Of a stretch of DNA of 44,883 nt, positions 13,622-43,305 are shown piece by piece; the first letter of the stretch is position 1; each line of letters begins with the position of its first letter. This stretch comes from a phage: NCBI GenBank assembly GCA_030395855.1, contig GCA_030395855.1_4325.1. One strand, written 5' to 3'. The notes under the pieces are model-generated. The model was not told the origin of the DNA. It worked only from the letters and a program-made list of their open reading frames with translations, and did no database searches. The position numbers and the translations under genes are program-made.

Positions 13622-14380
13622 ATGTTAACACCAAAAGTTAAACTTGAGATATTCCAGCACGCAAAAGAAGTTTTCCCGCATGAGTGCTGTGGGATTGTTA
13701 CGCAGAAGGGTAGGGCACAGAAATACCACAGAATCAAGAACGCCAGTAAAGACCCAGAAAATGAGTTTATCCTTGATTCAAATGAGTATTCTAATATCGC
13801 ATTTGGCTTAGCTGACAATGAGTCAATTGTTTACGTAGTTCACTCCCACACGGGTGATGGAGCCACAACAAGACCCAGCCCTGCTGATATCTGTAGCTGC
13901 AATGAGTGCGAGATTCCGTATGTTATCGTAAGTATACCAGAGGGAGATATGAGAATCCTTGAACCATCAACGATGCCTCTTATTGGTCGCCCGTGGGGTT
14001 TGGGTAGCTTTGACTGCTGGGAGCTGGTGATGGCATTCCACAAGAAATACGGCGTAAAACTGAATGACTACCGCGTCAATTACCCGTGGTGGGAGAAGCG
14101 GTACGGTGAAAATATATATGACGACAACTGGGTTAAGGAAGGATTTGAGCTGGTAAAAACTTCAGATATTCCGATTGGCTCAGTGATTATGATGCAGGTG
14201 CAAAGCGAGGTGACGAACCATGCCGGAATCTACATTGGCAATAACAGATTCATTCATCACCTTTATGGTAAAATGAGTTCAGTTGATATCTACTCCGATT
14301 ACTGGCGAGAGCGCACAGTGCGGATCGTTCGCCATAAGGATTTACCAGAGGATGTAATTTATGACCCAGAAACTGATTGA
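13622..14380 (+). CDS. tail assembly protein (lambda gpK-like, JAB/MPN + NlpC/P60-like)
   Basis: HSHTGDG...SPAD motif (JAB-like); C-terminal Cys/His region; position between L-like and I-like genes. Confidence 0.6.
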   Translation: MLTPKVKLEIFQHAKEVFPHECCGIVTQKGRAQKYHRIKNASKDPENEFILDSNEYSNIAFGLADNESIVYVVHSHTGDGATTRPSPADICSCNECEIPYVIVSIPEGDMRILEPSTMPLIGRPWGLGSFDCWELVMAFHKKYGVKLNDYRVNYPWWEKRYGENIYDDNWVKEGFELVKTSDIPIGSVIMMQVQSEVTNHAGIYIGNNRFIHHLYGKMSSVDIYSDYWRERTVRIVRHKDLPEDVIYDPETD

Positions 14381-14940: not shown

Positions 14941-14963
14941 ACCCGCCTAGTGCGGGTTTTTTA
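14941..14963 (+). terminator. intrinsic terminator-like hairpin
   Basis: acccgc-ctagt-gcgggt followed by T6. Confidence 0.5.
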
Positions 14964-14974
14964 TTTAGTGTAGA

Positions 14975-17900
14975 ATGGCACAAATGATCAAAACAAACAT
15001 GAGGCTTTGTGATATGGCTGAAGAGATTAAGATTTATGGTGCTAAAGGTGGGAGCCAGAAGCAGCATCAACCAGTGGAGCAGGAAGACAACCTGATTTCA
15101 CTAAACAAGGTTAAGGTATTGCTTGCTGTAGCTGATGGAGAGGTGGATCCAAACTTCTCAATGAAGGATTTATACCTTGCTGACGTTCCGGTGCAAAACC
15201 AGAATGGTAGCTACAACTACGAAGGTGTTCGCGCTGAGTTCCGTGCTGGTACGCAGTATCAGGACTATATCGCTGGCCTTGATGGTGCAAATTCAGAGAT
15301 TCAGGCATCCAGAGAGATCACGAACGATACCCCGTACATCATTGCGGTTAACAATACTCAGCTATCAGCAATTCGAGTAAAGCTATACTGGCCTCGACTA
15401 GTTAAGCAAGAAAGCAATGGCGACCTGAACGGAACTACATGCGAGTATGCAATTGATCTTTCTGTTAATGGCGGCGCTTATCAGGAATACACTCGAGGAG
15501 TTGCAAACGGAAAAACAACTACAGGTTACGACCGCAGCATTCGTGTAAACCTTCCGGCAGAGTTCGATAGCGCCCTGGTTCGAATCCGTAAAATTACGCC
15601 AGATTCAACAAGTAGCACACTGGTTAATGGAATGCAGATTACAACCTATCAGGAAGTAATTGATGCTAAATTCCGCTATCCGCTTACGGCTCTGGTTTAC
15701 GTTGAGTTTGGTTCTGACTTGTTCCCTAACGGAATCCCGACAATCTCCATCAAGAAGAGATGGAAACTGATTCAGGTGCCGACAAACTACAACCCGGAGA
15801 CAAGGACTTACAGCGGCACGTGGAATGGCCTGTTCAAGATGGCATGGTCAAACAACCCGGCGTGGGTTCTTTATGACCTGGTAACAAACCGACGCTATGG
15901 TCTTGATCAGAGAGAGTTGGGTGTAGAGATTGATAAATGGGGACTGTACGAAGCTGCGCAATTCTGCGACCAGATGGTGCCAGATGGTAAGGGTGGGATG
16001 GAGCCGCGCTACCTATGCGACATGGTTGTGCAGAATAAAGTTGAGGCCTACACACTAATTCGTGATATCTGTTCAATCTTCCGTGGCCTGACTTTCTATG
16101 ACGGCGAAAAGATTGGCATCGTGGTTGATAAGCCTCGCAACCCATCTTACATCTTCACCAATGATAACGTTGTAAACGGATTGTTCAGTCGAACCTTTGC
16201 CAGTGATAAAAGCCTTTACACCACGGTAAACGTTCAGTTTGATGATGTTGAGAACAACTATCAACAAGATGTAGAGCCGGTATTTGAATTAGAGGCAACT
16301 CGTCGTTTTGGATTTAACCCTGTAGATTTAACTGCGATTGGATGCACGCGAAGAAGCGAAGCAAACAGACGTGGCAGATGGCTCCTGAAAACCAACCTGA
16401 GAAACGAAACTATCAGCTTCACTACCGGTCTGGAAGGCATGATTCCGATGATTGGCGAGGTAATTGCGGTCAATGACGCAGCATGGTCGAGCAACTATCA
16501 GCTAAACCTTTCCGGTCGTATTGAATCAGTTCAGGGATTGCAGGTTTTTACCCCATTTAAAGTTGACGCAGCGCCTGGTGACAGAATTCTCCTGAACAAG
16601 CCTGACGGAAGTCCAGAAGCAAGAACTATTGCAAGCGTATCTGAGGATGGTAGGACGATTAACCTTAACACGGCTTTCAGCTTTGTAGCTCAGCCTGATA
16701 CTGTATTCGCAATAGATAAGGATAATCTCGCTCTTCAGCAATATGTGGTGACCGGGATTCAAAAAGCAGATTCTGACGGTTCTGATTCGTTCCAGTATAC
16801 AATTACCGCGGTGGAGTATGACCCTAACAAGTATGACGAGATTGACTACGGCGTTAACATTGTTGACCGCCCGACTTCAATCGTTGAACCTGACAGATTG
16901 TCGCCACCTGATAACTTAACAGTATCAAGCTACAGCAAGGTTGTTCAGGGTTTATCTGTTGAGACGATGGTAATTGGTTGGGATAAAGCGCCATACGCTA
17001 AAACATACAATGTTCAATGGAGAAAGGAAAATGGCAACTGGATTAACGTACCCAGAACGGCTAGCACAGAAGTTGATATCGAAGGCATTTACGCAGGAAT
17101 CTATGACGTTAGGGTTCGCAGCGTATCAGATACTGAAAACGTGTCTTCTTGGTCTGATATTGTAACTGTATCGCTAACTGGCAAGATTGGACGCCCTTCC
17201 GCACCTACGGTTATCACGGCATCAACTGATGAAGTATTTGGCATTCGTGTTAAATGGGGATTCCCTGATGGCTCTGGTGACACCGCTTACACTGAACTTC
17301 AGCAGGTTCCAGACAATGGTGATGGTACATACAATCCTGATAACGCGAGCTTGCTTACACTGCTTCCGTATCCGGCCTACGAATACTGGCATACGCCAAT
17401 TCAGCCCGGTAAGGTGATTTGGTATCGCGCAAGATTGATCGACAGAATCGGCAATACCTCTGATTGGTCTAATTTCGCTAGAGGCATGAGTACTGACGAC
17501 GCCAACATCATCAACAATTATATCAAGGTTGATATTGAAGGCTCGGAAGGATTCAAATATCTAGAGCAGAATGCAATTGAGAAAAACCAGGACATTCAGA
17601 ATCAAGCCGAGGCAATCATCGAGAACGCACTGGCTAATGATGGTGATGTTCGCAGAATGACAAAGGAGAACGGCAAGCGTAAGGCTGAATATGTTCAGGC
17701 AGTGAATCTCATAGCCGATGAAACTCAGGCTCGAGTAGAGGCTCTAACGGCCCTTAAAGCGCAGATAGATGATGAGGTTGTTGGTCAGATTACAACAATT
17801 GAAACAGCGCTAGCCACAGAGACAGAGGCAAGAGCGACAGCCGACACGGCTTTGAGCGCAAGGGTTGGTAATAACGAGGCGGCTCTAAACCAGAAGCTGG

Positions 17901-22573: not shown

Positions 22574-25154
22574 AACCTATTTTAGTGTAAGTCCATTTGT
22601 AAGTAGCTGTGCCAACTGCAGTTATGCTAACAGTCCTTGAGCTAACATCCATTGTTGTAAATGCTGCCGTCTTAGTGACTGTAATTGATGATGTGGATCC
22701 ATCAAATAGAACGTCAGCTATGACGCTATAGTTTGTTCCAGCATTAGCCACCCAGGTACAAACCTTGTACAAACCTGGTGAGTTTGGTAATTCAAATAGC
22801 CCAGTTGGAACGCTTGCCTGTACCACCTTTGAACCTTTATCCGTATAAACACCATTAGTCTTCAATCCTTCTGATGAGTATGTCTGCTTATAACCACCAG
22901 CAATAGAACCACCCATAGGCTCAGTAAACCAGTTCACATTGCCCTGACTAACAACCGATATCGCAGGGGAGCCCCCTTTAGCTGACTGGAACCTACCGCT
23001 GAGAATATCAATCCTTGATGCCGAATCTGCCGCGTAAATTGTTACAGGGTATCCACCTGTTCCAGTGTAAACCAATCCGTCATTGTTAATATCATCTTCA
23101 GACGAGTCAATGATGACGTGAGAAGTTCCAGAGGCCTTGATATATGAAACCACACCACCAGAACCACCTCCAGTTGTTCTAACCTCGTTTTTCCATGAAG
23201 TTAGTCCGGAAATCCTGCCATTTGAGTTATTAAACCTAATAAGGCAGCAATCCTGAGAGCCGTTGGTGTCAATAATGTTACCTTCAACGTCCATCCCTAG
23301 TATGTTTACGCTATGACTGTTAATAAAGTTAATTCCAGCCCCACCATTAGAACCTGATGTTGATGATATATTACTGGCATCCATTGCGCAGTTAATCATT
23401 GTCACACTCATTACTGAACCAAATTCAAAAGGAGAAACGCAACCAGATGCGTAGCATGTTTCCATGAGAATTGTAGTTCCTGTGGCTTTAATGAATCCGT
23501 TTCTACAGTTCCTTGCCCATACGTTTTGCAGCTTTGTTTGATACGTTCCAGTAGTATCAAGGTAGCAACCCCACGCGCCATGAACTGTGCAATCTTTGAT
23601 GCATGAATTTTCTAGCCCTGTAGTGGAAGCAACATTAGAAGCAAAGTTGAATGCTATCTTTTTATCATTTCCTGATCTTACGGTTGGCGTAGTTCCTGGG
23701 TTATAAAAAATGTAAAGTCCCTCAATAAACACTTGATACATTCTTATGTTTTGCGCATCACCCTGAACCAGGGCAAACAGGTTTATGTTCCCATCAACTG
23801 AGATGAATGTTTGAGCCCTGTTAATCTGTCCCGTTCCTTCACCAATGATTCTTGTGCTATTTCCAATCCTTACCGTCCTGTTAATGAACATAAAACCTTT
23901 TGGTATGTATACCGTCTTGCCGGTATTAACTGCCGCCTGAAGCGCAACCGAGTCAAGCGACTCTTTAAGGTTTGATGCAAATGGATAAACAGCCCGTGCA
24001 GCCTCAATTGTAGAGAATTTAGATGACAGAGGAACTAAAGTACCATTGTTTGTAGCACCAAAATCCATGACGTTAACAAAGTCACCAAGTTTACTATCCT
24101 TACTCCTTTCTACAAACGAGGCCAATGTAGATTTGTAATTCATCGAACTGAATTGTGATTGAGTCTCTGTCTTTGAATAAACATCTGATCTTGGGTAAAC
24201 CTCTGATTTTGAATAAACATCAAGCAAACCCCTAGCTCTTTCAGCAGTGGCGCCGCCAGCCGACTTCCCGCCTTCAACCATAATGTATTCGCGTAAGTAG
24301 AACTTTCTTGATCCTTTAGCGCCCGTCATCCTGAGGTGAGTAGCCCTAAATGATGAATCAGAATTAAATGACGGATATATATCAATCTCATAAGAGCCTT
24401 GCGCTCCACTTGTGCCCCTAACACATATAAAAAGCGTAGCGTTGGCTGTAGTGTATGTCGCAGCTAGTGATGCTGGAACGTTTGTCATGTTAGATACTAC
24501 AACTCGATAATTACCACCACTTTTAAATTCAACTTGCTGCCAATCCAATGATGGCATAGATATTGTCGATGTGCTTGCGATACCCTCATTGGCTAGAGTA
24601 ACCAAAGTTGCAGCATCACCAGCGTTGGCAATGACATTAACTGTGTTGTTGTATGCCTCCTGCGCACTACTTGCGCTTGATTCAGCCTGAGCCTTGCTTG
24701 TAGCGGCAGCTTGCTGGCTGGCAGATGCAGCCGATTCGCTTGCAGCCGCATTTGTTTCGCTTGCCTTCGCCTCATCAACTAATCGTTGTAACTTACCGAA
24801 ATCAAAATCACCAGATTCAGCCAACTCAACAAGTGACGCAACCTCAGTTTCACGTGACTGATAGTAACGAAGAGTTTCCGCAACATCCTGAGCTAGCCCC
24901 TGAACGGTAATTCCATCATGCGCAAGGATAGCGTAACCAGTTCCAGCAGGAACAGTTTCGGAGTTAGGGTTGTAAACATTAATCTGCGTATCGCTGATAA
25001 TTTCTGAGATGGTGTAAATCTGTACTGGTTCAGTTTTAAATACAATGGTTGCACCTACGCGAATCAGTGTAAGAGGTGCTTTCCATGTTGTCCCGACGCC
25101 AGTCACCTCACCACTTGCTGCTAGAGAAGCTGTTCCTGAGTCATAAATTGCCAT
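22572..25154 (-). CDS. tailspike / polysaccharide depolymerase (beta-helix, pectate-lyase-like)
   Basis: 861-aa minus-strand ORF (start at MAIYDSG, RBS GGAGA); N-terminal Ala/Ser-rich linker; central NVMDFGATNNG segment typical of right-handed beta-helix glycanases. Confidence 0.7.
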   Translation of the reverse strand: MAIYDSGTASLAASGEVTGVGTTWKAPLTLIRVGATIVFKTEPVQIYTISEIISDTQINVYNPNSETVPAGTGYAILAHDGITVQGLAQDVAETLRYYQSRETEVASLVELAESGDFDFGKLQRLVDEAKASETNAAASESAASASQQAAATSKAQAESSASSAQEAYNNTVNVIANAGDAATLVTLANEGIASTSTISMPSLDWQQVEFKSGGNYRVVVSNMTNVPASLAATYTTANATLFICVRGTSGAQGSYEIDIYPSFNSDSSFRATHLRMTGAKGSRKFYLREYIMVEGGKSAGGATAERARGLLDVYSKSEVYPRSDVYSKTETQSQFSSMNYKSTLASFVERSKDSKLGDFVNVMDFGATNNGTLVPLSSKFSTIEAARAVYPFASNLKESLDSVALQAAVNTGKTVYIPKGFMFINRTVRIGNSTRIIGEGTGQINRAQTFISVDGNINLFALVQGDAQNIRMYQVFIEGLYIFYNPGTTPTVRSGNDKKIAFNFASNVASTTGLENSCIKDCTVHGAWGCYLDTTGTYQTKLQNVWARNCRNGFIKATGTTILMETCYASGCVSPFEFGSVMSVTMINCAMDASNISSTSGSNGGAGINFINSHSVNILGMDVEGNIIDTNGSQDCCLIRFNNSNGRISGLTSWKNEVRTTGGGSGGVVSYIKASGTSHVIIDSSEDDINNDGLVYTGTGGYPVTIYAADSASRIDILSGRFQSAKGGSPAISVVSQGNVNWFTEPMGGSIAGGYKQTYSSEGLKTNGVYTDKGSKVVQASVPTGLFELPNSPGLYKVCTWVANAGTNYSVIADVLFDGSTSSITVTKTAAFTTMDVSSRTVSITAVGTATYKWTYTKIG

Positions 25155-25178: not shown

Positions 25179-25193
25179 TAGCACGAATTGCTA
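25179..25193. promoter_or_regulatory. palindromic operator-like site (TAGCACGAATTGCTA) without the usual -10/leader, just upstream of tailspike start
   Basis: Exact copy of the palindrome 25 nt upstream of the tailspike ATG, adjacent to the minus-strand terminator. Confidence 0.5.
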
Positions 25194-25218
25194 AAGTGGA
25201 TTGTAGCATCTTTATGAC

Positions 25219-25242
25219 ATAAAAAAACCTCCAGAAGGAGGT
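25219..25242 (-). terminator. intrinsic terminator (minus strand) after primase gene
   Basis: Hairpin acctcc-agaa-ggaggt; A7 on plus strand gives a T-run on the minus strand. Confidence 0.7.
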
Positions 25243-26168
25243 TAGTCTAGTAATTCACTTGCTTTGTATATTCTCTTTCTTATGCCTGACTTGAAAAAAT
25301 TACCATCATTTGGCATTACCACATCAAGATTGCGATCGTCAGCAACGGCGAGTAAATCAAAAGAGTGGCGAGCACAAGCGACGCGTAACTTGTAGTTTCT
25401 AAGCGCATAAGCAACCATTTCCATGTTGTAGCTGGAGTGGCAAACAAGCACGCAGCGGTTGCCAGCAGCAAGATGAACGCGAACACCATCAATCCAGTTA
25501 TCGACCAGATAAGCGTACTCACTATCCTTAAAGGCACCAACAACAGCAATAGACTGGCGAGTATAATCTTTTGCAGCATAACTAACATCTCCCTCTTCAT
25601 TGATAAACATTACGTTGCACATTTCTTCTGATATGCCGTCATTATAAGCCATAAAACACGGTATTGCGTGTATTAGTTCTCCTGATTTTGTTCTGCCAAC
25701 ATCAAAGCCAAACTCGCTATAGATACCCTCGTATGTACTGAGTGGAGTTGATTCTACTCTTTCCGTCCTTTCCATTATCTCTAAGCATCTTTCGTGGTCA
25801 ATCTGAGCGCCCATTTTGTATGGTGATGTTCTTGAAGCTCTTTTGTTTGCTTTTGATATAACCTCTACTGGAACTAGATTCAGCCAATCACCAAGCGTAT
25901 CTATTGTTTCACTATAACTCATTCCGGAACACTTCATTACCCAACCAACACCAGAATCATTTCCGCACTGGTTGCATATTGCTGCGCCATTTCCCTTTTC
26001 CTGACCTAACTCATCAGTGAAGCGAAACCTATCCCTGCCAAAGCAGTAAGGGCACGGACCATGTTTCTTGCTGAGATTCTCCTTTGTCCATCCAAGGTGC
26101 GATGAGTAGAATTCGCCCCACATTCCCTTCATTTTTGCTATCACTTCGTTCTTATCATGGTGACTCAT
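25242..26168 (-). CDS. DNA primase (zinc-finger type)
   Basis: N-terminal CPYCFGRDRFRF...CNQCG zinc-binding motif; RBS GGAGGT before ATG (MSHHDKN); conserved promoter element upstream. Confidence 0.65.
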   Translation of the reverse strand: MSHHDKNEVIAKMKGMWGEFYSSHLGWTKENLSKKHGPCPYCFGRDRFRFTDELGQEKGNGAAICNQCGNDSGVGWVMKCSGMSYSETIDTLGDWLNLVPVEVISKANKRASRTSPYKMGAQIDHERCLEIMERTERVESTPLSTYEGIYSEFGFDVGRTKSGELIHAIPCFMAYNDGISEEMCNVMFINEEGDVSYAAKDYTRQSIAVVGAFKDSEYAYLVDNWIDGVRVHLAAGNRCVLVCHSSYNMEMVAYALRNYKLRVACARHSFDLLAVADDRNLDVVMPNDGNFFKSGIRKRIYKASELLD

Positions 26169-26193
26169 AGTTACCTCCATAAACAATAAAGGC

Positions 26194-26236
26194 ACTATAC
26201 ACAATGTATAGCGCCACTGTTTATCAATTCGTGCTA
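26194..26236 (-). promoter_or_regulatory. conserved promoter/operator-like element copy (minus strand) driving primase
   Basis: Minus strand reads tagcacgaattgata, 22-nt spacer, TATAGT. Confidence 0.55.
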
Positions 26237-26716
26237 TTTCCCTTGCTCTTTAGCTTTTCGTGCTGCCTCGTTAGCGGCCTTAATCTTGCGCCATGATCGA
26301 CACTCTGGCTTGGTGGCTAATTCAGCCTCAGTAACAACACGCAGCATGTGACGCTTTTTGCAACGCAGAGTTAGCGGCTTCCCGTTACCGTCGAATTGCA
26401 AATCTGGTCGGCAGAATGTAGCGCGAAAACCCTCCCCAGTTCGTTTGTAGTAGTTGTGCGACAACTGAGCACCTCGCGCAGAAATCATACCGCGCTTAAA
26501 CCATTCCTCTACAGCCTGTGGTGTTACCTTTAATTGCTTTGCCATATTTGCCTTTGTGCCGAAGAAATCAAGAACTATCTCCAGGCGTGCCCGTAACCCG
26601 GCTCTTACTTCATCTTTTAAAACGTAGTAGCCTGAAGGTCGTTTTCGCTGCTTTTTATCTTCAGTGCGGATGGTTCCGTTATTGCCGTTAATGGTTCTCT
26701 TGTCGACTGTATTCAT
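26234..26716 (-). CDS. HTH DNA-binding protein (Cro/YdaS-like putative transcriptional regulator)
   Basis: Segment MAKQLKVTPQAVEEWFKRG resembles a helix-turn-helix; basic termini; RBS GAGGT; divergent from helicase gene. Confidence 0.55.
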   Translation of the reverse strand: MNTVDKRTINGNNGTIRTEDKKQRKRPSGYYVLKDEVRAGLRARLEIVLDFFGTKANMAKQLKVTPQAVEEWFKRGMISARGAQLSHNYYKRTGEGFRATFCRPDLQFDGNGKPLTLRCKKRHMLRVVTEAELATKPECRSWRKIKAANEAARKAKEQGK

Positions 26717-26817
26717 CTTATTACCTCGATAGCATTTTTTGTTAAAAGTCATCCTGATTTGATGGTAATATTGTACTCAATTAAACGCTACAAGACAATT
26801 TTTATAGGAATTTAGAT

Positions 26818-28812
26818 ATGTTGCCTATCGAGAAGCTGGTTGCAAACTTCGATAAAGAAAGAATTAAACAGATTCAGAAAGATTACCAGTTTGGCGAGAT
26901 AACCCCTTACGAGTTCCAGTGCGTTACATTTGATGCTATCGGAAAGGCTATTGGAAAGTACGAGGCACCATTTATCGCAGACCTTTCAGTATCTGCTGGT
27001 AAGACAATCATTCTCGCCATGATTGGAAAGCGCATGGAGCAATTGGGGTTGCCTTACATGGTTCTTTCTCGCCAGTCAGAGATAATAAGCCAGAACTCAG
27101 AAGAACTTCGTAATTTCGGCATCCGCAACAGCGTCTACTGCGCCGGACTTAACGTTAAATCAGTTTACTACCCAACCATAGTTGCTAGTGAGGGCACGGC
27201 AGCCAACGGCCTATTTAAGGGGCTTGGTGACTATGTTCCGGCAGTTATTGCAATCGATGAGTGTCATATGGTTGATCACATGGATATCGTTGAGGCTGAA
27301 GAGAACGAAGAAACATTTGAGCAAATGAGTACAAAGAAAGGCGAGATGGTTTTTAAGGATGGCGTTAATACTGGATTGCTTGGTACTGGTCGTGCGCAGT
27401 ACACGCTAATCATTACTGAGATGAAGCGTCGTTGTCGTGAGAAGTACGGGCGGGAGCTTCGTATATTCGGCCTAACTGGTAGCCCTTATCGAAACAATGA
27501 CCATATCGTCGTTAGCAATCCAAACATCCGTGGATTCTGGCGCAAAACAGTGATTCAGGTGCCAACCAATTACCTTGTTGATTTGGGTTTCGTGGTACCT
27601 ACTGTTTATGGCGAGGTTGGCGATTTAGGTTATGACCTTAGCGAGTTTGTTCCAGACGGTAGTGATGGCGTGAAAGACTTTAGCAAGAGAGAAATGGATG
27701 CAATGGCAGCGAAGATTCACGACAACCAATCCATGACTCAAAAGATAATGGGTTTTGTTGTAAAAATACTAGAGACTCGTAACGCCGCATTGGTAACGTG
27801 TGCTGGTAAACTTCACTGCGAAGAAGCTGCTGCAGCGCTACCAGATGGATACCCTTATGCCATCATCACCGACTCCACGGGAGAGAGGAGGCGCAGAGAG
27901 ATTCTGGCTGATTGCCAGACAGGGAAGTACAAAATAATATTCCAGATTGGTTGTCTAACCACAGGCGTAAACCAACCGCTGTGGGATACTAGCGTCATAC
28001 TACGCAAGATTGGCAGCCTAACCTTAATGATTCAGCTTCTTGGTCGTGGAATGCGAAAACTAAAAAAGGCGCACATAGATGCTGGATTTAAGAAAGATGA
28101 TCACCTTGTTTTAGACTTCGCTGGCGCGCTTGATGATATGGCGGAACTTTACTTTGACCCAATAATTGAGGAGATACAGGCCGAGAAGTTTAAATCTTCA
28201 AGAAAAGGTGGTGATGAGGTTCGCCAGTGTCCACAATGTGGATATGAGAACTCGCCATTTGCTAGACGCTGTAGCAATAAGATTAATGGCGTTAGATGCG
28301 ATCACTTTTTCCAGTTCACAACATGTGATGATATTACCGACCAACAAACAAAGGCGGTAATCAAGAAAGGTTGTGGAGCTAAAAATGACATAGCAGCAAA
28401 AGTTTGTCGTGAATGCGGAGAAATGCTTAAAGACCCAAACGCTAACCTGACTGGAAAGATGTATCGTCGCGGAGACTATTTGCGGGTTTATGATTTTCAA
28501 GTTGGTTTAACCAAGAATCAAACTGGCATTGTAGTTAAGTACAATATCATGGCCCACAACGGAGAAAGATTTAACGCTTGGGAGTTCTTTAATCCAGAAT
28601 CTGACCATAGGGTTTGTAGTGTGCTTTGGAAAAACTTTTGCCTTGATCACATTGAAAATCGCGCTGAAGCAGCACGAATTGGCAGACTGAAGAATGCCAG
28701 AATGATTATGACTAACGCAGATAAGTTTCGTGCGCCAGTCCAGGTGACACACCGCAAGAATAGCAAAGGAAAGGATATAATAGCTTTTAAGAATTTTGGA
28801 GAATTGTTATGA
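26818..28812 (+). CDS. superfamily-2 DNA helicase with C-terminal zinc ribbons
   Basis: Walker A SAGKT and DExH box IDECH; two C-terminal CxxC...CxxC clusters. Confidence 0.75.
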   Translation: MLPIEKLVANFDKERIKQIQKDYQFGEITPYEFQCVTFDAIGKAIGKYEAPFIADLSVSAGKTIILAMIGKRMEQLGLPYMVLSRQSEIISQNSEELRNFGIRNSVYCAGLNVKSVYYPTIVASEGTAANGLFKGLGDYVPAVIAIDECHMVDHMDIVEAEENEETFEQMSTKKGEMVFKDGVNTGLLGTGRAQYTLIITEMKRRCREKYGRELRIFGLTGSPYRNNDHIVVSNPNIRGFWRKTVIQVPTNYLVDLGFVVPTVYGEVGDLGYDLSEFVPDGSDGVKDFSKREMDAMAAKIHDNQSMTQKIMGFVVKILETRNAALVTCAGKLHCEEAAAALPDGYPYAIITDSTGERRRREILADCQTGKYKIIFQIGCLTTGVNQPLWDTSVILRKIGSLTLMIQLLGRGMRKLKKAHIDAGFKKDDHLVLDFAGALDDMAELYFDPIIEEIQAEKFKSSRKGGDEVRQCPQCGYENSPFARRCSNKINGVRCDHFFQFTTCDDITDQQTKAVIKKGCGAKNDIAAKVCRECGEMLKDPNANLTGKMYRRGDYLRVYDFQVGLTKNQTGIVVKYNIMAHNGERFNAWEFFNPESDHRVCSVLWKNFCLDHIENRAEAARIGRLKNARMIMTNADKFRAPVQVTHRKNSKGKDIIAFKNFGELL

Positions 28813-29228
28813 ACATTACAGACAAAGTTGATTACATTGAGTTTTACTCTGGACCTGTTAAGTCGTGTCCGAAAGAGGATGACGAACAAATCTTTTGCTC
28901 TGATTGGGTTAAGTATAACTATCCAGATATGGTATTTTTCCACTGCGTAAATGAGGGTAAGAAAACCATTGGTCAAGCAAGGAAGGACCAGGCTAAAGGA
29001 TTGCTCAAAGGGGTCTCGGACTGTTTATTCCTGATACCTGAATCGCTTAGAGGCAGTTATCCATTTGGAGCCATAGAGCTAAAGAGGGCAGGAAAAACTC
29101 AGGCTAGCCCGGTCAGCGATGAGCAGAGGTCCTTCCTTAAAAGCGTAAGGGAATCAGGAGGTTTCGCCGCCGTGGCCTACGGACGCGAGGGCTTTCTAGC
29201 AGCATTCAAAGAAATGATTTCAAAATAG
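28809..29228 (+). CDS. VRR-NUC domain nuclease
   Basis: DCLFL...GAIELK...SDEQ segment resembling the VRR-NUC PD-(D/E)XK core; ATGA overlap with helicase stop. Confidence 0.6.
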   Translation: MNITDKVDYIEFYSGPVKSCPKEDDEQIFCSDWVKYNYPDMVFFHCVNEGKKTIGQARKDQAKGLLKGVSDCLFLIPESLRGSYPFGAIELKRAGKTQASPVSDEQRSFLKSVRESGGFAAVAYGREGFLAAFKEMISK

Positions 29229-29268
29229 CACGAATTGCTAAAGACGATTTTAAAAGATGGGGTATAGT
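29226..29268 (+). promoter_or_regulatory. conserved promoter/operator-like element copy (canonical)
   Basis: tagcacgaattgcta 29226-29240, 22-nt spacer, TATAGT 29263-29268, leader CCATCGAAATGAA, then RBS and ATG 29305. Confidence 0.65.
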
Positions 29269-29304
29269 TACTCCATCGAAATGAAACAAAGAGAGAGAAA
29301 CAAA

Positions 29305-29517
29305 ATGGCTACTATCTACACCACTAAGAAATACATTTCACGTAAAACTGGTTATGAGTATGAATTAGTAATCACCGCTGATGGTTATGTTCTTGATGAT
29401 GGTGAAGGTTATGCTTTCGAAGTTAGCCCAACTTACAAGGATGATTTAGAAACTGTTAAAAACGAATTTGGCGAAAAATTTGATGAGGTATCAGACAATG
29501 GCAATTTTTACATTTGA
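29305..29517 (+). CDS. hypothetical protein (70 aa)
   Basis: RBS AGAGAGAGA before ATG 29305; downstream of the conserved element. Confidence 0.5.
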   Translation: MATIYTTKKYISRKTGYEYELVITADGYVLDDGEGYAFEVSPTYKDDLETVKNEFGEKFDEVSDNGNFYI

Positions 29518-29719
29518 GAATCAATGGGAAGCATTTAAGTTAATGGCAGTTCAGGAGCTCAAGAAATCTGGATATAACAAAAACCCGTGGGACTTAGCAT
29601 TTTGCCTGGACATGAGTTTTGAAGAAGATTACCTGAACACTGATATCGAAACATGGCGTGACTGTATGGTTGCTGATATCGAAGAAATGAAGAAAGATTG
29701 CCAGGAGGATTTTGAATAA
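29498..29719 (+). CDS. hypothetical protein (73 aa)
   Basis: RBS GAGGT before ATG 29498; overlaps previous gene end. Confidence 0.45.
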   Translation: MAIFTFENQWEAFKLMAVQELKKSGYNKNPWDLAFCLDMSFEEDYLNTDIETWRDCMVADIEEMKKDCQEDFE

Positions 29720-30426: not shown

Positions 30427-31557
30427 ATGGCAACTGCAAAAATAACCAACGAAGAGCTGCGCGAAGAACTGGCAAGCGGCATGACCAACAAGGCAATAGC
30501 AGAGAAGTACGGAATGAACATTCGCAACGTTGAATTGCGTCGTAGTAAGCTGGCTAAGAGTGGAGAATTGCACGGAAACCCAGGCATCAAGAAGCTAGTT
30601 CCTGACGGTTATTTGGTCAAAGGTACTTCAACCATGATTGACGCGGAAGGAAACGAGAAGATCCGTTGGGTTAAGACCTCAATTGATAATGAGCGCCTTG
30701 ATGTTCTGATGGAGAAAGCTCGCGAGGCATTCTGCTCTGATTTGCCAAAGGCAGATGTAGTCACCCACTCAGGTAATGAAGTTAACTCTGAATTGATGAC
30801 TCTTTATCCGATTTTCGATATCCATATCGGTATGATGGCACATCGTCATGAGTCTGGTGAGAATTATGACACGAACACGGCAGAGGAATTGATGGGATCA
30901 TATTTTGACCATGCAATTTCTGTATCTCCAGCCTCAGAGAAAGCAGTAATTTTAGTTGGCGGCGACTTCCTTCACTCAGACGGACTTGAGGCTGTAACCC
31001 CAGCAAGCGGACACTGCCTTGATCAAGATAGCCGATATGCTAAGTTAGTTTATGTGGCAATTCGCTCAATTCGTGGCGCGGTAGAGAAGATGCTTAAGAA
31101 ACACAAGGAAGTAGAGATTCAAATCATAGAGGGAAATCACGACCAGAGTGGTATGATTTGGCTCCGTGCGGCAATGGCTGCATTTTATGAAAACGAGAAT
31201 CGCGTGTTTGTTGATACTAGTCCGGCAATCATGCACAAGACGCGATTTGGCTCAACATTACTTGGTTACACGCACGGCCACACAATGAAGAAAGCTGAGG
31301 GTCGACTCGCGGCAATGGCGACAGACTACCGCAAAGACTTTGGTGAATGTGAATTCGTTTACTGCCATTCCGGCCATTTCCATCATGCAACCGTTACAGA
31401 ATGCACTCTTGGTATTGATGAGGTGCACCCTGCACTTGCCAGTAAGGATGCATATGCAGCACGGGGAGGGTGGCGATCATACCGACAGGCGGCTGCAATT
31501 GTTTACCACAAGAATTTTGGCGAGGTTGGTAGACACATTTATCGTCCTGGTATGTAA
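30427..31557 (+). CDS. calcineurin-like metallophosphoesterase with N-terminal HTH-like domain
   Basis: Motifs DIHIG, GGDFLHSD, GNHD, GHTH, GHFH match the metallophosphoesterase signature; N-terminal TNKAIAEKYGMNIRNVELRR is HTH-like. Confidence 0.7.
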   Translation: MATAKITNEELREELASGMTNKAIAEKYGMNIRNVELRRSKLAKSGELHGNPGIKKLVPDGYLVKGTSTMIDAEGNEKIRWVKTSIDNERLDVLMEKAREAFCSDLPKADVVTHSGNEVNSELMTLYPIFDIHIGMMAHRHESGENYDTNTAEELMGSYFDHAISVSPASEKAVILVGGDFLHSDGLEAVTPASGHCLDQDSRYAKLVYVAIRSIRGAVEKMLKKHKEVEIQIIEGNHDQSGMIWLRAAMAAFYENENRVFVDTSPAIMHKTRFGSTLLGYTHGHTMKKAEGRLAAMATDYRKDFGECEFVYCHSGHFHHATVTECTLGIDEVHPALASKDAYAARGGWRSYRQAAAIVYHKNFGEVGRHIYRPGM

Positions 31558-34470: not shown

Positions 34471-34486
34471 TGGAGGCTATATTTTT
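34455..34486. terminator. bidirectional intrinsic terminator
   Basis: Hairpin agcctcc-taa-tggaggct flanked by A5 and a T-run; between convergent operons. Confidence 0.7.
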
Positions 34487-34820
34487 AGCTAAATAACTCG
34501 TCGTCAGTCATTGTTCCTATATTCATCATCTCTTTTATGTACTTGCTCTGATACCCGCTAAGTGCCTCGAAGTTAAACTCAAATGGCCTTTTCAAACTCC
34601 CCTTGCTAACAAACTCACCGCACTTACCATCAATGTAACCTGCACTCAACATCTTCGCGCAAAACTCCTTTGATGCAGCACTGCAAAACTCTCTATGCGG
34701 CAACCCGGCCGCCTTGCTGAACCTCTCAGAGTCCTTATGTTGGTAGATGAATCGCGCCAAATGCTGGCGCGTGAAATAGGAATACGACTCGCAGAACTTA
34801 AATATATCCAGCAGGAACAT
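34485..34820 (-). CDS. hypothetical protein (111 aa)
   Basis: Minus-strand ORF, RBS GGGGTG, downstream of the DUF3987-like gene in the same operon. Confidence 0.5.
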   Translation of the reverse strand: MFLLDIFKFCESYSYFTRQHLARFIYQHKDSERFSKAAGLPHREFCSAASKEFCAKMLSAGYIDGKCGEFVSKGSLKRPFEFNFEALSGYQSKYIKEMMNIGTMTDDELFS

Positions 34821-36481: not shown

Positions 36482-36835
36482 TTATCGGTATTGCGCCTCA
36501 AAGCGATAGTCGCCACAAACTGTAACAAAGCCAACATCTTCGTCACGATATAGCTGCCATGCGCTACCCTCTTTATCGTAAATGTATCCAGCACGCTGCC
36601 CAAGTCCAGCGTGGAGATCTACTTGATATCGCCTCCCTTCAGTGAAGTACTTGCGAATGGATGAGCGATGATTAACCTTTGTGCAGTAGATGGTCTTGGT
36701 CTTGATGTACTTACCACGCTCTTCCAGGTTAATCCATTTTCCATCTTTCTTAATCTGCTCTACACCATCTTTAACGCGAGCTTTGTATAGCACGTTTTCT
36801 TTGCTGATCCAGTTTTTAGTAATCGTAGTAGTCAT
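36482..36835 (-). CDS. hypothetical protein (117 aa)
   Basis: Minus-strand ORF directly downstream of a conserved element. Confidence 0.5.
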   Translation of the reverse strand: MTTTITKNWISKENVLYKARVKDGVEQIKKDGKWINLEERGKYIKTKTIYCTKVNHRSSIRKYFTEGRRYQVDLHAGLGQRAGYIYDKEGSAWQLYRDEDVGFVTVCGDYRFEAQYR

Positions 36836-37559: not shown

Positions 37560-37845
37560 TTCGTTAGATTTATGGATTGATGCAGATATTGCAATGATTC
37601 ATATGATTATTGCACATACAGCAATATTGCTTCCGATGCAATGATGTTTTTGATTGTTGCGAAAAGTGAAATGAAGTGGGGAGTGAGTGAATGAAAGATT
37701 GATGGACTACCATACAAGTTGATTTTTACCAATCTATGGGAGCCTCACGGATATACGCGTATCCTCCGTATACTCATTGTCGTCACAAAAGTTAGTGACC
37801 ACTAACCTACGTTTTTACGCGATATATACACACGATATACAATAT

Positions 37846-37912
37846 AATATCTATATATATCAACCTTTTACTTTATTATTATTATTATTATTATATATAT
37901 GTATACTGTGTA
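37846..37912. repeat. AT-rich repeat block B (same core as block A, with longer (TTA)n tract)
   Basis: AATATCTATATATATCAACCTTTTACT + (TTA)5-6 + TATATAT + TACTGTGTATA; second divergent intergenic region. Confidence 0.7.
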
Positions 37913-38189
37913 TACCGGCAATTGGTGAGATTATTGATATGTTCCGCGCAGATATTCTGACACCTGTCAGAAATGGATGGCATTGTAGGAATAAAAGGCA
38001 CATATATAGGGAATGGCTTCAAAAATCTGTACACATCGGATACGGCACATTTACAACCAGCAATGGAGGGGCCTCTGGAGGCAAAAAGCGTATCCATGAT
38101 AAAATAGACGAAAATATACATTGACCGACACGTAAATAGATGGCAATATAGCAGTCACTGAAACGAAGTAAAACAAACGAGGTATCAAC

Positions 38190-38738
38190 ATGCAGAAAGT
38201 AACACTAGGTGAAGTTATCCGTGAGATGGTGCGCAACGCGATGGTGTCCGAGAGTGGTGAGTTTAAAGTTCCGGTTAGCCAGATATTCAAACTGGTTCGC
38301 GGCAAGGAATACCCTGAAATGGTGTATGACGAAGAGACTAGTGAGATCCTCAACCTGGCAGATAGGGCGATACCGGAACTAAAGAACTCATACATCTATA
38401 ACACAGTGTCGAGAATGACAGAGCTTCGCGATGCTAATAAGCGAGCGAGATATAAGTTCATCTGGATTGATGATGACGGAGAGCAAACAAGGCCCGGTAG
38501 CTTCGATGGTGATGGCGCTGATAAATACCTGGTCATATACATTGAGAACGGCGCGCACTGGACTGGGAGTCGCGAAAAGAAAAAGCAGGAAGCGGAGAAA
38601 GAGGCGGCTATCATTGAAAAGTTCAAGTCTAGACTGCTCAAGCTGTCACCAAGTGTTGCTGGCTTGGAAGGTGAAGAACTTAAGGGCGCTGTTACAATGA
38701 TTAATGCTTATCAGGAAATGATTAAGGAGACTAAGTAG
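38190..38738 (+). CDS. hypothetical protein (182 aa), first gene of second rightward operon
   Basis: RBS ACGAGG before ATG 38190. Confidence 0.55.
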   Translation: MQKVTLGEVIREMVRNAMVSESGEFKVPVSQIFKLVRGKEYPEMVYDEETSEILNLADRAIPELKNSYIYNTVSRMTELRDANKRARYKFIWIDDDGEQTRPGSFDGDGADKYLVIYIENGAHWTGSREKKKQEAEKEAAIIEKFKSRLLKLSPSVAGLEGEELKGAVTMINAYQEMIKETK

Positions 38739-40325: not shown

Positions 40326-40552
40326 TTACGATTAACCTGTCAGATAAAGACGCGGCGATGATAAAGAGTATCATCATGAAACCAATGTACTCCACGCTAT
40401 CATTCGAACAGATGCGCGTAGTGAAAGAAGTTGGCGCGCAGATTAATAATCAACAACTCGACGTTAGTGACTTCGAGTCATCGCGTCAATACGAGGCGCT
40501 AAGCGTTAATGCTGCGTACCTGACTAACTGGGATAAGGCGACAAAGAAATGA
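40322..40552 (+). CDS. hypothetical protein (76 aa)
   Basis: ORF track; start overlaps upstream stop. Confidence 0.45.
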
Positions 40553-40686
40553 TTTACATCCACACATACTACACTGGCAAGTTTAATAGCGTTAAGCACG
40601 CCATTGTTCACGATAGCTACGATAGCGCAAAGGCTCAATGGTTGGTTCTTGGCGGCGATATTAATTCATATAGAATCGCTAAATAG
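40549..40686 (+). CDS. small hypothetical protein (45 aa)
   Basis: Not in ORF track; ATGA coupling; stop TAG embedded in the next conserved element. Confidence 0.3.
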   Translation: MIYIHTYYTGKFNSVKHAIVHDSYDSAKAQWLVLGGDINSYRIAK

Positions 40687-41947: not shown

Positions 41948-42187
41948 ATGTTCGGACTAAATGAAGCGATGTTAAACGCAGTCAAGGGTCAGGCCAAAAA
42001 ACTAAACGATAAGTATGAGTCACTAGGTAAGCTGGACCGCAAGAATGACAAGTTGGTTGCTGGAGTTATCACTGAGATTTGGGAGCCTGTTTCTACAGTG
42101 ATTAGCAGGGATCGATTTGTTTGGGTGGCTGGTTATTTGCGAGGCCTGGTTGGTCATGACGAGAATGGGAATAGCCTTTATGAGTGA
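41948..42187 (+). CDS. hypothetical protein (79 aa)
   Basis: RBS GAGGG before ATG 41948. Confidence 0.5.
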   Translation: MFGLNEAMLNAVKGQAKKLNDKYESLGKLDRKNDKLVAGVITEIWEPVSTVISRDRFVWVAGYLRGLVGHDENGNSLYE

Positions 42188-42579: not shown

Positions 42580-42657
42580 GATCTGCTAGCTCAACAGGAA
42601 AGAAGCAACGACCTTCTAAGTCGTAGGTTACTGGTTCGAATCCAGTGCGGATCGCCA
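42580..42657 (+). tRNA. tRNA-Arg (anticodon UCU), with encoded CCA
   Basis: Folded by eye: acceptor stem GATCTGC/GCGGATC (one G-U), anticodon stem ACGAC/GTCGT, loop CTTCTAA (anticodon TCT at 42615-42617), T arm ACTGG-TTCGAAT-CCAGT, discriminator G, CCA. Confidence 0.8.
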
Positions 42658-42672: not shown

Positions 42673-42855
42673 ATGTGGGATGTGAAACTGTCCATTCGCC
42701 TAATGGGCCGCTCATGCAAGAATTGCACTCAAGATTACATCGCGTCAGTTGCCGCAATCAGCGCTGAGGATGCGGTAGCGAAAGTAAAAGAGATGTCAGG
42801 CGCTGACCCTGATACTCACAAATTCCTGGTAGCTTACGTTCGTGAGCGAAAGTAA
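42673..42855 (+). CDS. hypothetical protein (60 aa)
   Basis: Strong RBS AAGGAG before ATG 42673; terminator downstream. Confidence 0.5.
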   Translation: MWDVKLSIRLMGRSCKNCTQDYIASVAAISAEDAVAKVKEMSGADPDTHKFLVAYVRERK

Positions 42856-43271: not shown

Positions 43272-43273
43272 TA

Positions 43274-43282: not shown

Positions 43283-43305
43283 CTGACCTCAACAAAGGAG
43301 GATTT

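What the first reader, a model, noticed from the sequence alone, without database searches (positions are those of the whole stretch)
26194..26818. HTH regulator divergently transcribed from helicase: candidate protein that binds the palindrome
The Cro/YdaS-like HTH protein (26234..26716) sits between a conserved element driving primase on the minus strand and the divergent helicase promoter region. It is the only clearly stand-alone HTH regulator in the genome, which makes it the first candidate for the factor recognising TAGCA-N5-TGCTA. The N-terminal HTH of the 30427 phosphoesterase is a second candidate.
Basis: inference. Interest (0 to 1): 0.4.

Follow-up and report, generated by a model that had tools for sequence, protein, structure and literature searches.

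The report
T1-type phage Cro-like regulator gene
This is the orthologue of phage T1 gp23, an untested Cro-like DNA-binding protein found in all T1-like phages; it is the leading but doubtful candidate for the factor that reads a repeated promoter element controlling most of the phage's genes.

Summary
The window is a T1/Rtp-like coliphage (Drexlerviridae). The ORF at 26234..26716(-) is real: 160 aa, 97% identical to Rtp52, orthologous to T1 gp23, and already annotated 'transcriptional regulator'. It has a Cro/YdaS-type HTH fold and is the only HTH-family hit among 57 non-structural ORFs.

The 'palindrome' is the pseudo-dyad core of a directional 20-bp element, aAATAGCAC-nww-TTGyTAAAa, already published for phage TLS with no known function or binder. 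In 17 window copies it ends 21-23 bp upstream of a -10 hexamer, so its centre is near -42, and there is no usable -35.

For gp23 as reader:
- It co-occurs with the element in 12/12 T1-like genomes, and both are absent from two related outgroups.
- It has its own positionally conserved -35/-10 promoter.
- A reversed element copy lies in its 5'UTR, which is also -42 of the helicase promoter. Another reversed copy covers about +1..+15 of the tail-fibre promoter.

Against:
- Its recognition helix is its least conserved structured segment, while the element is invariant.
- Seven small core proteins of unknown function share its distribution.

The second candidate, the HTH-phosphoesterase, is disfavoured: Jerseyvirus keeps it but lacks the element. 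Interpretation partly supported; P about 0.4.

The parts
26234..26716 (-). gp23/Rtp52-like gene. 160 aa: basic N-terminal arm (aa 5-27), long helix (35-52), Cro/YdaS-type HTH (55-75), RPD loop, basic C-terminal tail.
26770..26798 (-). Putative sigma-70 promoter of the HTH gene: -35 TTGTCT (26798-26793), 17-bp spacer, -10 TACAAT (26775-26770). No element at -42.
   Evidence: 9/12 match, chance-level on its own. Positionally conserved promoter-like pair in 12/12 genomes, with -35 quality varying from good to poor.
26730..26744 (+). T-type element copy TAGCATTTTTTGTTA. Centre is about -42 of the helicase promoter. On the other strand it lies about +19..+33 of the HTH transcript, 13 nt before its ATG.
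26766..26771 (+). -10 hexamer TAATAT of the helicase promoter. It overlaps the -10 of the HTH promoter on the opposite strand.
26818..28812 (+). SF2 helicase gene (T1 gp22-like), divergent from the HTH gene.
26222..26236 (-). Element copy TAGCACGAATTGATA of the primase promoter. It overlaps the HTH stop codon.
26191..26215 (-). 11-pair hairpin followed by a T-run, a terminator-like end of the HTH transcript. Its 3' arm contains the primase -10 TATAGT (26199-26194).
   Evidence: T1 annotates a terminator at the same place.
25242..26168 (-). Primase gene (Zn-ribbon, T1 gp24-like).
25179..25193 (+). 'Orphan' element copy with no -10 of its own. It lies 6 nt downstream of the tail-fibre extended -10 on the other strand, so it covers about +1..+15 of that transcript, an operator position.
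   Evidence: Same layout in 9/11 genomes.
25200..25208 (-). Extended -10 TGCTACAAT of the tail-fibre gene promoter.
29226..29240 (+). Representative canonical element copy, TAGCACGAATTGCTA then 22 bp then TATAGT and the leader tactCCATCGAAAtGAA. It is one of 17 oriented promoter copies: 687+, 8540+, 19708-, 21349+, 26222-, 26730+, 29226+, 31559+, 32647+, 36466-, 36900-, 37545-, 38827+, 39345+, 40162+, 40684+, 41761+.
30427..31557 (+).
   Evidence: Disfavoured.

Best explanation
The ORF encodes the T1 gp23 / Rtp52 orthologue, a Cro/YdaS-fold HTH protein with a highly conserved basic N-terminal arm.

Proposed mechanism (inferred, not shown):
1. Unmodified host RNA polymerase transcribes the gene early from its own -35/-10 promoter.
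2. The protein binds, probably as a dimer, to the pseudo-dyad TAGCA-N5-TGyTA inside the directional element aAATAGCAC-nww-TTGyTAAAa.
3. Where the element is centred near -42 of a -10 hexamer with no usable -35 (17 promoters in this genome, including helicase and primase), the protein acts as a class-II-type activator, as lambda cI does at OR2/PRM.
4. Where a reversed copy lies downstream of a promoter, it represses. This applies to its own 5'UTR (which also shifts polymerase from the HTH promoter to the overlapping helicase promoter) and to +1..+15 of the tail-fibre promoter.

Shown here: the gene, the fold, the element geometry, the conserved layout and the phyletic co-occurrence. Inferred: binding, dimerisation, the sign of regulation and the timing.
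For: 1. It is the only HTH-family hit among 57 non-structural ORFs. The Cro-type fold is supported.
2. Geometry. In 17 copies, all co-directional with the downstream gene, the palindrome ends 21-23 bp before a TATAGT-like -10, putting its centre at about -42. None has a good -35 and only 3 have TGn.
3. The half-site centres are 10 bp apart, which fits an HTH dimer.
4. Co-occurrence. The element and a gp23 homologue are present in 12/12 T1-like genomes across three subfamilies plus metagenomic relatives as distant as about 50% identity or less. Multi-copy occurrences in IMG/VR were on T1-sized contigs (one on a 28-kb contig), while single hits on other contig sizes look like chance.
5. Segzyvirus keeps the divergent primase/helicase pair but lacks gp23 and the element, and uses canonical promoters. 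Jerseyvirus also lacks both.
6. A promoter-like pair for gp23 is positionally conserved in 12/12 genomes. The reversed element was located 22-25 nt after its -10 (9 genomes) and 10-13 nt before the ATG (10 genomes); variant copies in the last two were missed by the regex. This is the same copy that sits at -42 of the helicase promoter.
7. A reversed copy lies at +1..+15 of the tail-fibre extended -10 promoter in 9/11 genomes. This fits a protein operator better than an RNAP-recognition element.
Against: 1. Over 22 homologues the putative recognition helix (aa 66-75) is the least conserved structured segment: mean top-residue frequency 0.44, and 0/10 positions conserved at 90% or more. The N-arm scores 0.77 (9/23 positions). 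Yet the element is essentially invariant in the same genomes, for example in those encoding PQAVEEW, NQTVQGW, RHRVARW or VCRLTNAY.
2. The element is directional and only pseudo-symmetric.
3. Pfam HTH scores are below the gathering thresholds.
4. The gp23 promoter match in this window is 9/12, which is chance-level in isolation.
5. Seven small core proteins of unknown function have the same phyletic pattern.
6. No experimental or transcriptomic data were found for any T1-like phage. The TLS authors name no binder.
Confidence: 0.4

Rival explanations
1. gp23 is a local or replication-module protein, and another phage-encoded factor reads the global element. gp23 could be a Cro-like autoregulator of the gp23/helicase divergent promoters with lineage-specific specificity, or an initiator/loader partner of primase and helicase. 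The reader would then be one of the small core proteins of unknown function.
For: - The variable recognition helix looks like lineage-specific specificity.
- The gene always sits between primase and helicase.
- Seven small core unknowns share the Drexlerviridae-only distribution: windows 420-689, 29498-29719, 34485-34652(-), 36482-36835(-), 40549-40686, 41948-42187 and 42673-42855.
- Some genomes have lineage-specific inverted repeats flanking the overlapping -10s, for example T1 AACGTTTAC-N20-GTAAACGTT.
Against: - None of the small core proteins hits a DNA-binding family.
- The lineage-specific inverted repeats are not found consistently.
- The element copies bracket gp23 in every genome.
Confidence: 0.22
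2. The element is read by the host: directly by RNA polymerase (alpha-CTD or sigma-70 region 4, as an unusual UP/-35 substitute), or by a conserved host protein. In that case gp23 is not the reader.
For: - The element is invariant across phages of Escherichia, Klebsiella, Salmonella and others, which would fit a highly conserved host reader.
- Element promoters precede the small early-type genes at both genome arms, so a reader present at time zero would be convenient.
- The TLS authors suggested UP-like enhancers.
- From memory only: the arms TAGCA...TGCTA match the Lrp SELEX consensus YAGHAWATTWTDCTR.
Against: - The invariant G/C positions (GCAC, TTG) are unlike A/T-rich UP elements.
- TTGyTA is 5 bp too far upstream for a -35.
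- Sigma-54-like TGGCAC-N5-TTGC spacing is 2 bp short.
- Reversed copies at +1..+15 of the tail-fibre promoter and in the gp23 5'UTR make sense for a repressor/operator, not for an RNAP module.
- Related Segzyvirus and Jerseyvirus on the same hosts do not use the element.
- An RB-TnSeq screen with two Klebsiella Drexlerviridae does not mention Lrp anywhere in its text, and the hit reported for Drexlerviridae in the passages read was dsbA (PMC13412088).
- Classical T1-resistant mutants map to tonA/tonB only (established knowledge).
Confidence: 0.2
3. The N-terminal LuxR/FixJ-like HTH of the 376-aa phosphoesterase (30427..31557, T1 gp16-like) binds the element.
For: - The three-helix HTH is modelled with pLDDT 72-89, and its best local fold matches are LuxR/FixJ/NarL-type domains. 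Weak sequence hits agree: GerE, TtrR, FixJ.
- Its putative recognition helix keeps R33, E36, R38, L42 and K44 invariant in 9 genomes where gp23's helix has no invariant position.
- LuxR-type activators typically bind dyads near -42.5 (established knowledge).
Against: - The protein occurs in 2017 phage records, including Jerseyvirus, Vibrio and Yersinia phages.
- Jerseyvirus f18SE keeps the HTH (RNVxLR..LAK.G), but its genome has no element-like site and TAGCAC is not enriched (16 found, 20 expected).
- All fold and sequence matches are non-significant (E 0.03-1).
- It is fused to an Mre11/SbcD-like nuclease domain annotated as a DNA repair exonuclease.
Confidence: 0.05

Closest known systems
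Lambda cI at OR2 / PRM-PR (Cro/cI-fold HTH acting as class II activator and repressor)
   Same: - A 15-bp pseudo-dyad centred at about -42, abutting the -35 position of a promoter with a poor -35.
- Divergent promoters sharing one operator region, so that one bound protein could activate one promoter and repress the other.
   Different: - The phage is virulent, with no lysogeny module.
- There are about 18 sites per genome in front of most transcription units, not a single immunity region.
- The element is directional with asymmetric flanks.
- The recognition helix is not conserved, while a long basic N-terminal arm is.
- No binding or sigma contact has been shown.
Phage Mu Mor and C middle/late activators
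   Same: A small phage-encoded HTH protein is proposed to bind an imperfect dyad at about -33 to -51 of promoters that have a -10 but no -35, switching on sets of phage genes with host sigma-70 polymerase (established knowledge for Mu; the geometry here comes).
   Different: No sequence or fold relation: Mor/C did not appear. Mor/C act at a handful of promoters, whereas this element marks early-type, replication and some late units.
P22 Cro / YdaS family (Pfam PF14549, PF15943)
   Same: - Best sequence and structure matches.
- The FGT...AK.L.V...AV..W pattern aligns with P22 Cro residues 5-34.
- The RPD motif after helix 4 is shared with about 80-aa Cro/YdaS-like relatives found by the profile search.
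   Different: - Scores are below the Pfam gathering cut-offs.
- The protein has an additional 50-aa N-terminal region (conserved arm plus long helix) and a 50-aa C-terminal extension.
- It is found only in T1-like virulent phages.
The 21-nt direct repeat of phage TLS (Kropinski-type PHIRE repeat; PMC11447400)
   Same: It is the same DNA element, consensus aaATAGCACnnnTTGnTAAAA. [quoted passage not shown] This was reproduced here in T1, Rtp and TLS.
   Different: The paper treats the repeat as of unknown function (stoperator, enhancer site or UP-like) and names no binder. The fixed 21-23 bp distance to a -10, the reversed operator-position copies and the link to gp23 come from this analysis.
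Mycobacteriophage L5 gp71 stoperators
   Same: Many copies of an asymmetric, orientation-biased site for one phage HTH protein, spread through the genome. A few copies here lie inside transcribed leaders.
   Different: L5 sites lie downstream of promoters and block elongation in a temperate phage. Here 17/18 copies lie at a fixed upstream position relative to a -10 hexamer, which fits initiation control.
T4 MotA/AsiA middle promoters
   Same: A phage-specific upstream box replaces the -35 at sigma-70 -10 promoters. The box sequence is superficially similar (tTGCTTtA against TTGCTAAA).
   Different: The MotA box is centred at -30, 12 bp from the -10. Here TTGyTA is 22 bp from the -10. No MotA or AsiA family hit was found among 57 ORFs.

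Membership tests
Cro/YdaS-type HTH (Pfam P22_Cro PF14549 / YdaS PF15943) | Sequence score at or above the curated gathering threshold | tested here: not met
   26.1 bits against 30.2 for P22_Cro, and 19.8 against 30 for YdaS. Some homologues carry these Pfam hits in precomputed tables.
Cro/YdaS-type HTH (Pfam P22_Cro PF14549 / YdaS PF15943) | All-alpha helix-turn-helix fold superposable on solved Cro proteins | tested here: met
   [not shown]
Cro/YdaS-type HTH (Pfam P22_Cro PF14549 / YdaS PF15943) | Sequence-specific binding of a dimer to a (pseudo)palindromic operator through helix 3 | not testable with these tools
   Indirect evidence is negative: helix 3 has 0/10 positions conserved at 90% or more, while the candidate site is invariant.
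Class II (about -41.5) transcription activators | Binding site centred near -41.5/-42 relative to the start, overlapping or abutting the -35 region | tested here: met
   The palindrome ends 21-23 bp upstream of the -10 in 17 copies here and in copies from 11 other genomes. The transcription start is inferred from the -10, not mapped.
Class II (about -41.5) transcription activators | Target promoters are weak without the activator (poor -35) | tested here: inconclusive
   No hexamer with more than 4/6 matches to TTGACA at 16-18 bp, and TGn in only 3/17 copies. Promoter strength was not measured.
Class II (about -41.5) transcription activators | The protein binds the site and contacts sigma-70 region 4 or alpha | not testable with these tools
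   No protein-DNA or multimer prediction tool was available.
T4 MotA-type sigma appropriation | Box centred at -30, about 12 bp from the -10, plus MotA/AsiA homologues | tested here: not met
   The box-to-(-10) distance is 22 bp. No MotA or AsiA Pfam hit among 57 ORFs.
UP element (RNAP alpha-CTD site) | A/T-rich sequence from -38 to -59 with no invariant G/C | tested here: not met
   G3, C4, C6 and G12 are near-invariant at 1.2-2 bits.
Sigma-54 promoter | GG and GC separated by exactly 10 nt (TGGCAC-N5-TTGC) | tested here: not met
   TAGCAC-N3-TTGC has 2 nt less spacing and A instead of G at -25. A sigma-70-type -10 lies at a fixed distance downstream.
L5-type stoperators | Asymmetric sites inside transcription units, oriented so as to block elongation | tested here: not met
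   17/18 copies lie upstream of a -10 at a fixed distance. Only the gp23-leader and tail-fibre copies lie downstream of a promoter, and both are reversed.

The most novel reading that the evidence does not exclude
One early Cro-fold protein runs almost the whole transcription programme of T1-like phages. It would read an invariant, directional 20-bp element mainly through its invariant basic N-terminal arm (DKRTINGNNGTxRGxD..RKRP) rather than through its variable recognition helix. It would activate 17-25 promoters per genome that lack a -35 from about -42, and repress its own promoter and the tail-fibre promoter from reversed copies. That would be a promoter-class switch in a classical coliphage whose regulation has never been worked out, using an unusual mode of HTH-protein/DNA recognition.
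Probability: 0.2. Interest if true: 0.65.

Novelty: new member of a known kind. Interest (0 to 1): 0.4.

Why it matters
T1 is one of the original T phages, and Drexlerviridae are among the commonest coliphages and Klebsiella phages, including therapy candidates and fermentation contaminants. Even so, how they time gene expression without a polymerase or sigma factor of their own is unknown.

The repeated element was published in 2024 with no function or binder. If gp23 binds it, a single protein and a 20-bp site would explain:
- promoter recognition at most transcription units;
- the replication-gene switch;
- late tail-fibre control.

That would also give a compact orthogonal promoter/regulator pair. 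The conflict between an invariant site and a variable recognition helix makes the outcome informative whichever way it falls. The test is simple: EMSA or footprinting, plus a reporter assay with and without gp23.

Tried and rejected
- TTGCTA as an ordinary -35: nothing -10-like lies 16-18 bp downstream, and the real -10 is 22 bp away.
- Other sigma factors were considered by eye. Sigma-54 (TGGCAC-N5-TTGC) has the wrong spacing. Sigma-32 (CCCCAT in the leader) has its upstream box about 30 bp away rather than 13-17 bp. Sigma-28 and sigma-24 do not fit.
- UP element: rejected because of invariant G/C positions.
- MotA box: rejected on geometry.
- Lineage-specific inverted repeats as gp23 operators in the gp23-helicase spacer: present in T1, L008 and L012 but not consistently.
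- De novo 8-mer counting in distant loci gave only noise.
- The search for related loci in viral contigs with distant homologues P0101 and P0097 found nothing. The look-up of encoding contigs worked instead.
- A homologue search with the phosphoesterase N-terminal 105 aa returned only 3 proteins, so its AF2 model is shallow (mean pLDDT 66).
- Literature searches for T1-like transcriptomes, mapped transcription starts or gp23 experiments found nothing relevant.
- Rfam finds no known RNA in the region, only a tRNA at 42580-42654.
- The longer start at ATG 26752 was rejected in favour of 26716, on RBS position and relatives' annotation.
Full report
**What the window is.** The 44.9-kb window is an essentially complete T1/Rtp-like coliphage genome. 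It is 92% identical over 4 kb to Escherichia phage vB_EcoS_FP (Drexlerviridae, Braunvirinae) and close to Veterinaerplatzvirus and Rtp. The only Rfam hit is a tRNA at 42580-42654.

- A minus-strand ORF ends at 26234. The start at 26716 (160 aa) is preferred over ATG 26752. It has a GAGGT RBS at 26723-26727 and matches the 483-nt CDS of the closest relative.
- The helicase gene starts at 26818 on the other strand. The primase gene (25242..26168) follows the ORF on the same strand.
- Pfam hits to P22_Cro (26.1 bits) and YdaS (19.8 bits) are below the gathering thresholds, but the HTH is real on other grounds:
  - PHROG 2856 'transcriptional regulator', E 5.6e-84.
  - The family profile hits P22 Cro 1RZS at E 0.011.
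  - An AlphaFold2 model (pLDDT 85.8) shows a low-confidence basic N-terminal arm, a long helix, then a Cro-type HTH.
- Among 57 non-structural ORFs scanned against Pfam, no other HTH family appears at E<0.011.
- The gene is not new. It is 97% identical to Rtp52 (Rtp note: 'strong prediction of DNA-binding helix-turn-helix'). It is orthologous to T1 gp23 and TLS gp58, all annotated 'transcriptional regulator'. tblastn finds it in 825 phage records, overwhelmingly phages of enterobacterial hosts; every record examined was T1-like, and the 20 labelled Campylobacter and one Pseudomonas are probably mislabelled.

**What the 'palindrome' really is.**
- TAGCA-N5-TGCTA occurs 8 times exactly against 0.05 expected, and 19 times with at most 1 mismatch against 1.8 expected.
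- Read in context, it is the core of a longer directional module: aAA-TAGCAC-(g/t)ww-TTGCTA-AA, then 21-23 bp, then a TATAGT-like hexamer, then a conserved leader tacyCCATCGAAACGA, then RBS and ATG.
- Seventeen copies have this form. All point towards the downstream gene, with the palindrome 53-69 nt (two outliers at 246 and 269 nt by my crude gene calls) before a start codon.
- If the hexamer is the -10, the palindrome spans about -49 to -35, with its centre at -42. TTGCTA is then 5 bp too far upstream to serve as a -35.
- No hexamer better than 4/6 lies at 16-18 bp, and only 3/17 copies have an extended -10 TGn.
- Anchoring on one half and measuring the other shows both halves strongly conserved, but the symmetry is imperfect. 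Position 13 is C or T while its partner G3 is invariant. C6 has no symmetric partner. The flanks are AA...AA, not symmetric.
- The element is already published. The 2024 TLS re-annotation reports a 21-nt direct repeat aaATAGCACnnnTTGnTAAAA with 21 copies, in the direction of transcription, also seen in T1, Rtp and Rogue1. It offers 'stoperator', enhancer-binding site or UP-like element as possibilities and names no binding protein (PMC11447400).
- I reproduced it in T1 (25 hits), Rtp (22) and TLS (23).

**Evidence linking the protein to the element.**
1. *Co-occurrence.* Twelve genomes or contigs carry a gp23 homologue: the window, Rtp, T1, TLS and eight metagenomic relatives as distant as about 50% identity or less, found through a profile search of 1.8 billion representatives. 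All twelve carry the same element with the same spacing to a -10. In IMG/VR, multi-copy occurrences were on T1-sized contigs (one on a 28-kb contig).
2. *Outgroups.*
   - Segzyvirus LPSTLL shares primase, helicase, VRR-NUC, RecE-like and Erf genes. Primase and helicase are still divergent, but the gp23 gene is missing from between them.
   - Segzyvirus has no element-like site, and TAGCAC occurs 12 times against 23 expected. It uses canonical promoters of the form TTGACGTAGA...TGTAGATT.
   - Jerseyvirus f18SE also lacks both gp23 and the element.
3. *Layout around the gene*, conserved in all twelve genomes.
   - A T-type element copy lies 10-13 nt upstream of the gp23 ATG on the opposite strand. 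There it is the -42 site of the helicase promoter.
   - On the gp23 strand, 22-25 nt further upstream, there is a -35/-10 pair with 16-18 bp spacing. Examples are TTGTCT-17-TACAAT here, TTGAAT-17-TATAAT in T1 and TTGACT-17-TATCAT in TLS. In several metagenomic relatives the -35 is poor.
   - The -10 of this pair overlaps the helicase -10.
   - So gp23 has a promoter that does not depend on the element. A protein bound at this copy would sit at -42 for the helicase promoter and at about +19..+33 for the gp23 promoter, as in the lambda PR/PRM logic.
   - A second copy overlaps the gp23 stop codon and serves the primase promoter. An 11-pair hairpin with a T-run, 26215..26191, overlaps that promoter's -10. 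T1 annotates a terminator there.
4. *The 'orphan' copy* at 25179-25193 has no -10 of its own. It starts 6 nt downstream of an extended -10 (TGCTACAAT, 25200-25208) for the tail-fibre gene, in reversed orientation, so it covers about +1..+15. The same layout is found in 9 of 11 genomes. A site that sits at -42 in one set of promoters and over the start site in another is what one expects of a protein operator with dual activator and repressor roles. It is hard to explain as an RNAP-recognition module.

**Evidence against.**
- In an alignment of 22 diverse homologues, the putative recognition helix (aa 66-75, PQAVEEWFKR) is the least conserved structured segment. Its mean top-residue frequency is 0.44, with 0/10 positions conserved at 90% or more.
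- The N-terminal arm (DKRTINGNNGTxRGxD..R) scores 0.77 with 9/23 such positions. The RPD loop scores 0.72.
- Genomes whose proteins carry NQTVQGW, RHRVARW, NPLEYREM, GLRMVLW or VCRLTNAY in place of PQAVEEW all have the same element.
- For orthologous HTH regulators that share one operator, one would expect the base-contacting positions to be conserved.
- Seven small core proteins of unknown function have the same Drexlerviridae-only distribution.
- No transcriptome, mapped transcription start or biochemical datum was found for any T1-like phage.

- The 376-aa protein at 30427 is T1 gp16-like (PHROG 704 'DNA repair exonuclease').
- Its N-terminus models as a three-helix HTH with pLDDT 72-89. 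The best local matches are LuxR/FixJ/NarL domains, none significant.
- Its putative recognition helix is well conserved: R33, E36, R38, L42 and K44 are invariant in 9 genomes.
- The protein is present in 2017 phage records, far beyond T1-like phages.
- Jerseyvirus f18SE keeps the HTH almost unchanged while having no element. The conservation is therefore not tied to the element.

**Host readers.**
- A host or RNAP reader would explain the element's invariance and would solve the time-zero problem for early-type genes.
- Several points argue against it:
  - The invariant G/C positions.
  - The 5-bp displacement from a -35.
  - The reversed operator-position copies.
  - The absence of the element from related phages of the same hosts.
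- From memory, the arms match the Lrp SELEX consensus. Against a required non-essential host factor:
  - A Klebsiella RB-TnSeq study with two Drexlerviridae does not mention Lrp in its text, and dsbA is the hit it reports for Drexlerviridae in the passages read (PMC13412088).
  - Classical T1 resistance maps only to tonA/tonB (established knowledge).

**Verdict.**
I could strengthen it through geometry, conserved operator layout and phyletic co-occurrence. I could also weaken it through the variable recognition helix, the pseudo-symmetry and the other unannotated core proteins.
- Probabilities:

| Reader of the element | Probability |
|---|---|
| gp23 | about 0.4 |
| Another phage protein | about 0.2 |
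| Host factor or RNAP | about 0.2 |
| The phosphoesterase HTH | about 0.05 |

- In kind, this is an uncharacterised member of the Cro/YdaS HTH regulators, working (if the hypothesis holds) like lambda cI at PRM or Mu Mor/C.
- Interest is moderate. The gene and the repeat are both already described, but the link would explain the transcription programme of a classical phage family, and it is directly testable.

Noticed in passing
window 25179-25208: A reversed element copy lies 6 nt downstream of an extended -10 (TGCTACAAT) for the tail-fibre gene, directly after the primase terminator. That is an operator-like position over +1..+15, and it is conserved in 9/11 T1-like genomes.
   Followed up: yes
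window 37560-38190: A noncoding stretch of about 630 bp lies between the two divergent arms of small early-type genes. It contains repeated TTGCA/TGCAAT-like words (37570-37650) and a (TAT)n/(TA)n low-complexity run (37870-37900). By position it corresponds to the physical genome ends/pac region of T1, and it may also hold element-independent early promoters or an origin.
   Followed up: no
window 38100-38190: The first gene of the rightward arm (38190, DUF7174) has the common -10/leader module (TATAGCagtcacTGAAACGAAg) but no element upstream. Instead there is a TTGACC about 20 bp away. It may be another element-independent, immediate-early promoter.
   Followed up: partly
window, leaders of the 17 element promoters (e.g. 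29269-29290): A conserved sequence tacyCCATCGAAACGA follows the -10, so it would be the first nucleotides of the transcripts. In several copies the spacer plus leader form a short inverted repeat around the -10 (gatgggg-TATAGTTA-ctccatc). Function unknown.
   Followed up: partly
window 43250-43305 and 14950-15013: Late-gene units (terS, tail J-like) are preceded by a terminator hairpin followed by -10-type promoters without the element: TGGTATAAT at 43274 before terS, and GTGTAGAAT before the J-like gene. This suggests a second, element-independent promoter class for late genes.
   Followed up: partly
L002 (T1) 8359-8381 and 25018-25040; L006 (TLS) 24905-24927: In T1 and TLS, element copies sit immediately upstream (2-15 nt) of the start codons of terS and the tail J gene, with no -10 at the usual distance. 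No equivalent copy was found at these genes in the window.
   Followed up: no
window 30427-31557; L135 19950-21080: The HTH-metallophosphoesterase (T1 gp16-like) is very widespread: 2017 phage records including Jerseyvirus, Vibrio, Yersinia and Rhodobacter phages. Its N-terminal LuxR-like HTH is conserved, and the target of that HTH is unknown.
   Followed up: partly
L134 (Segzyvirus LPSTLL) 13831-13974: The outgroup lacking gp23 has 18-bp direct repeats (GAAACAATCAATCGTTAC / GAAACAATTAATCGTTAC) in its primase-helicase divergent spacer. It also has a repeated promoter-like motif, TTGACGTAGA...TGTAGATTGAACTCAT, elsewhere.
   Followed up: no
window 42580-42654: A tRNA gene (Rfam 55.7 bits) lies among the small genes upstream of the terminase, as reported for other T1-like phages (one arginyl-tRNA in the AHP24 group).
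   Followed up: no
gp23 family, aa 5-27 (window 26636-26704 on the minus strand): The motif DKRTINGNNGTxRGxD..RKRP is the most conserved part of the protein family (9/23 positions conserved at 90% or more), yet AlphaFold2 models it with low confidence (pLDDT 53-56). Its partner (DNA, RNAP or a replication protein) is unknown.
   Followed up: partly
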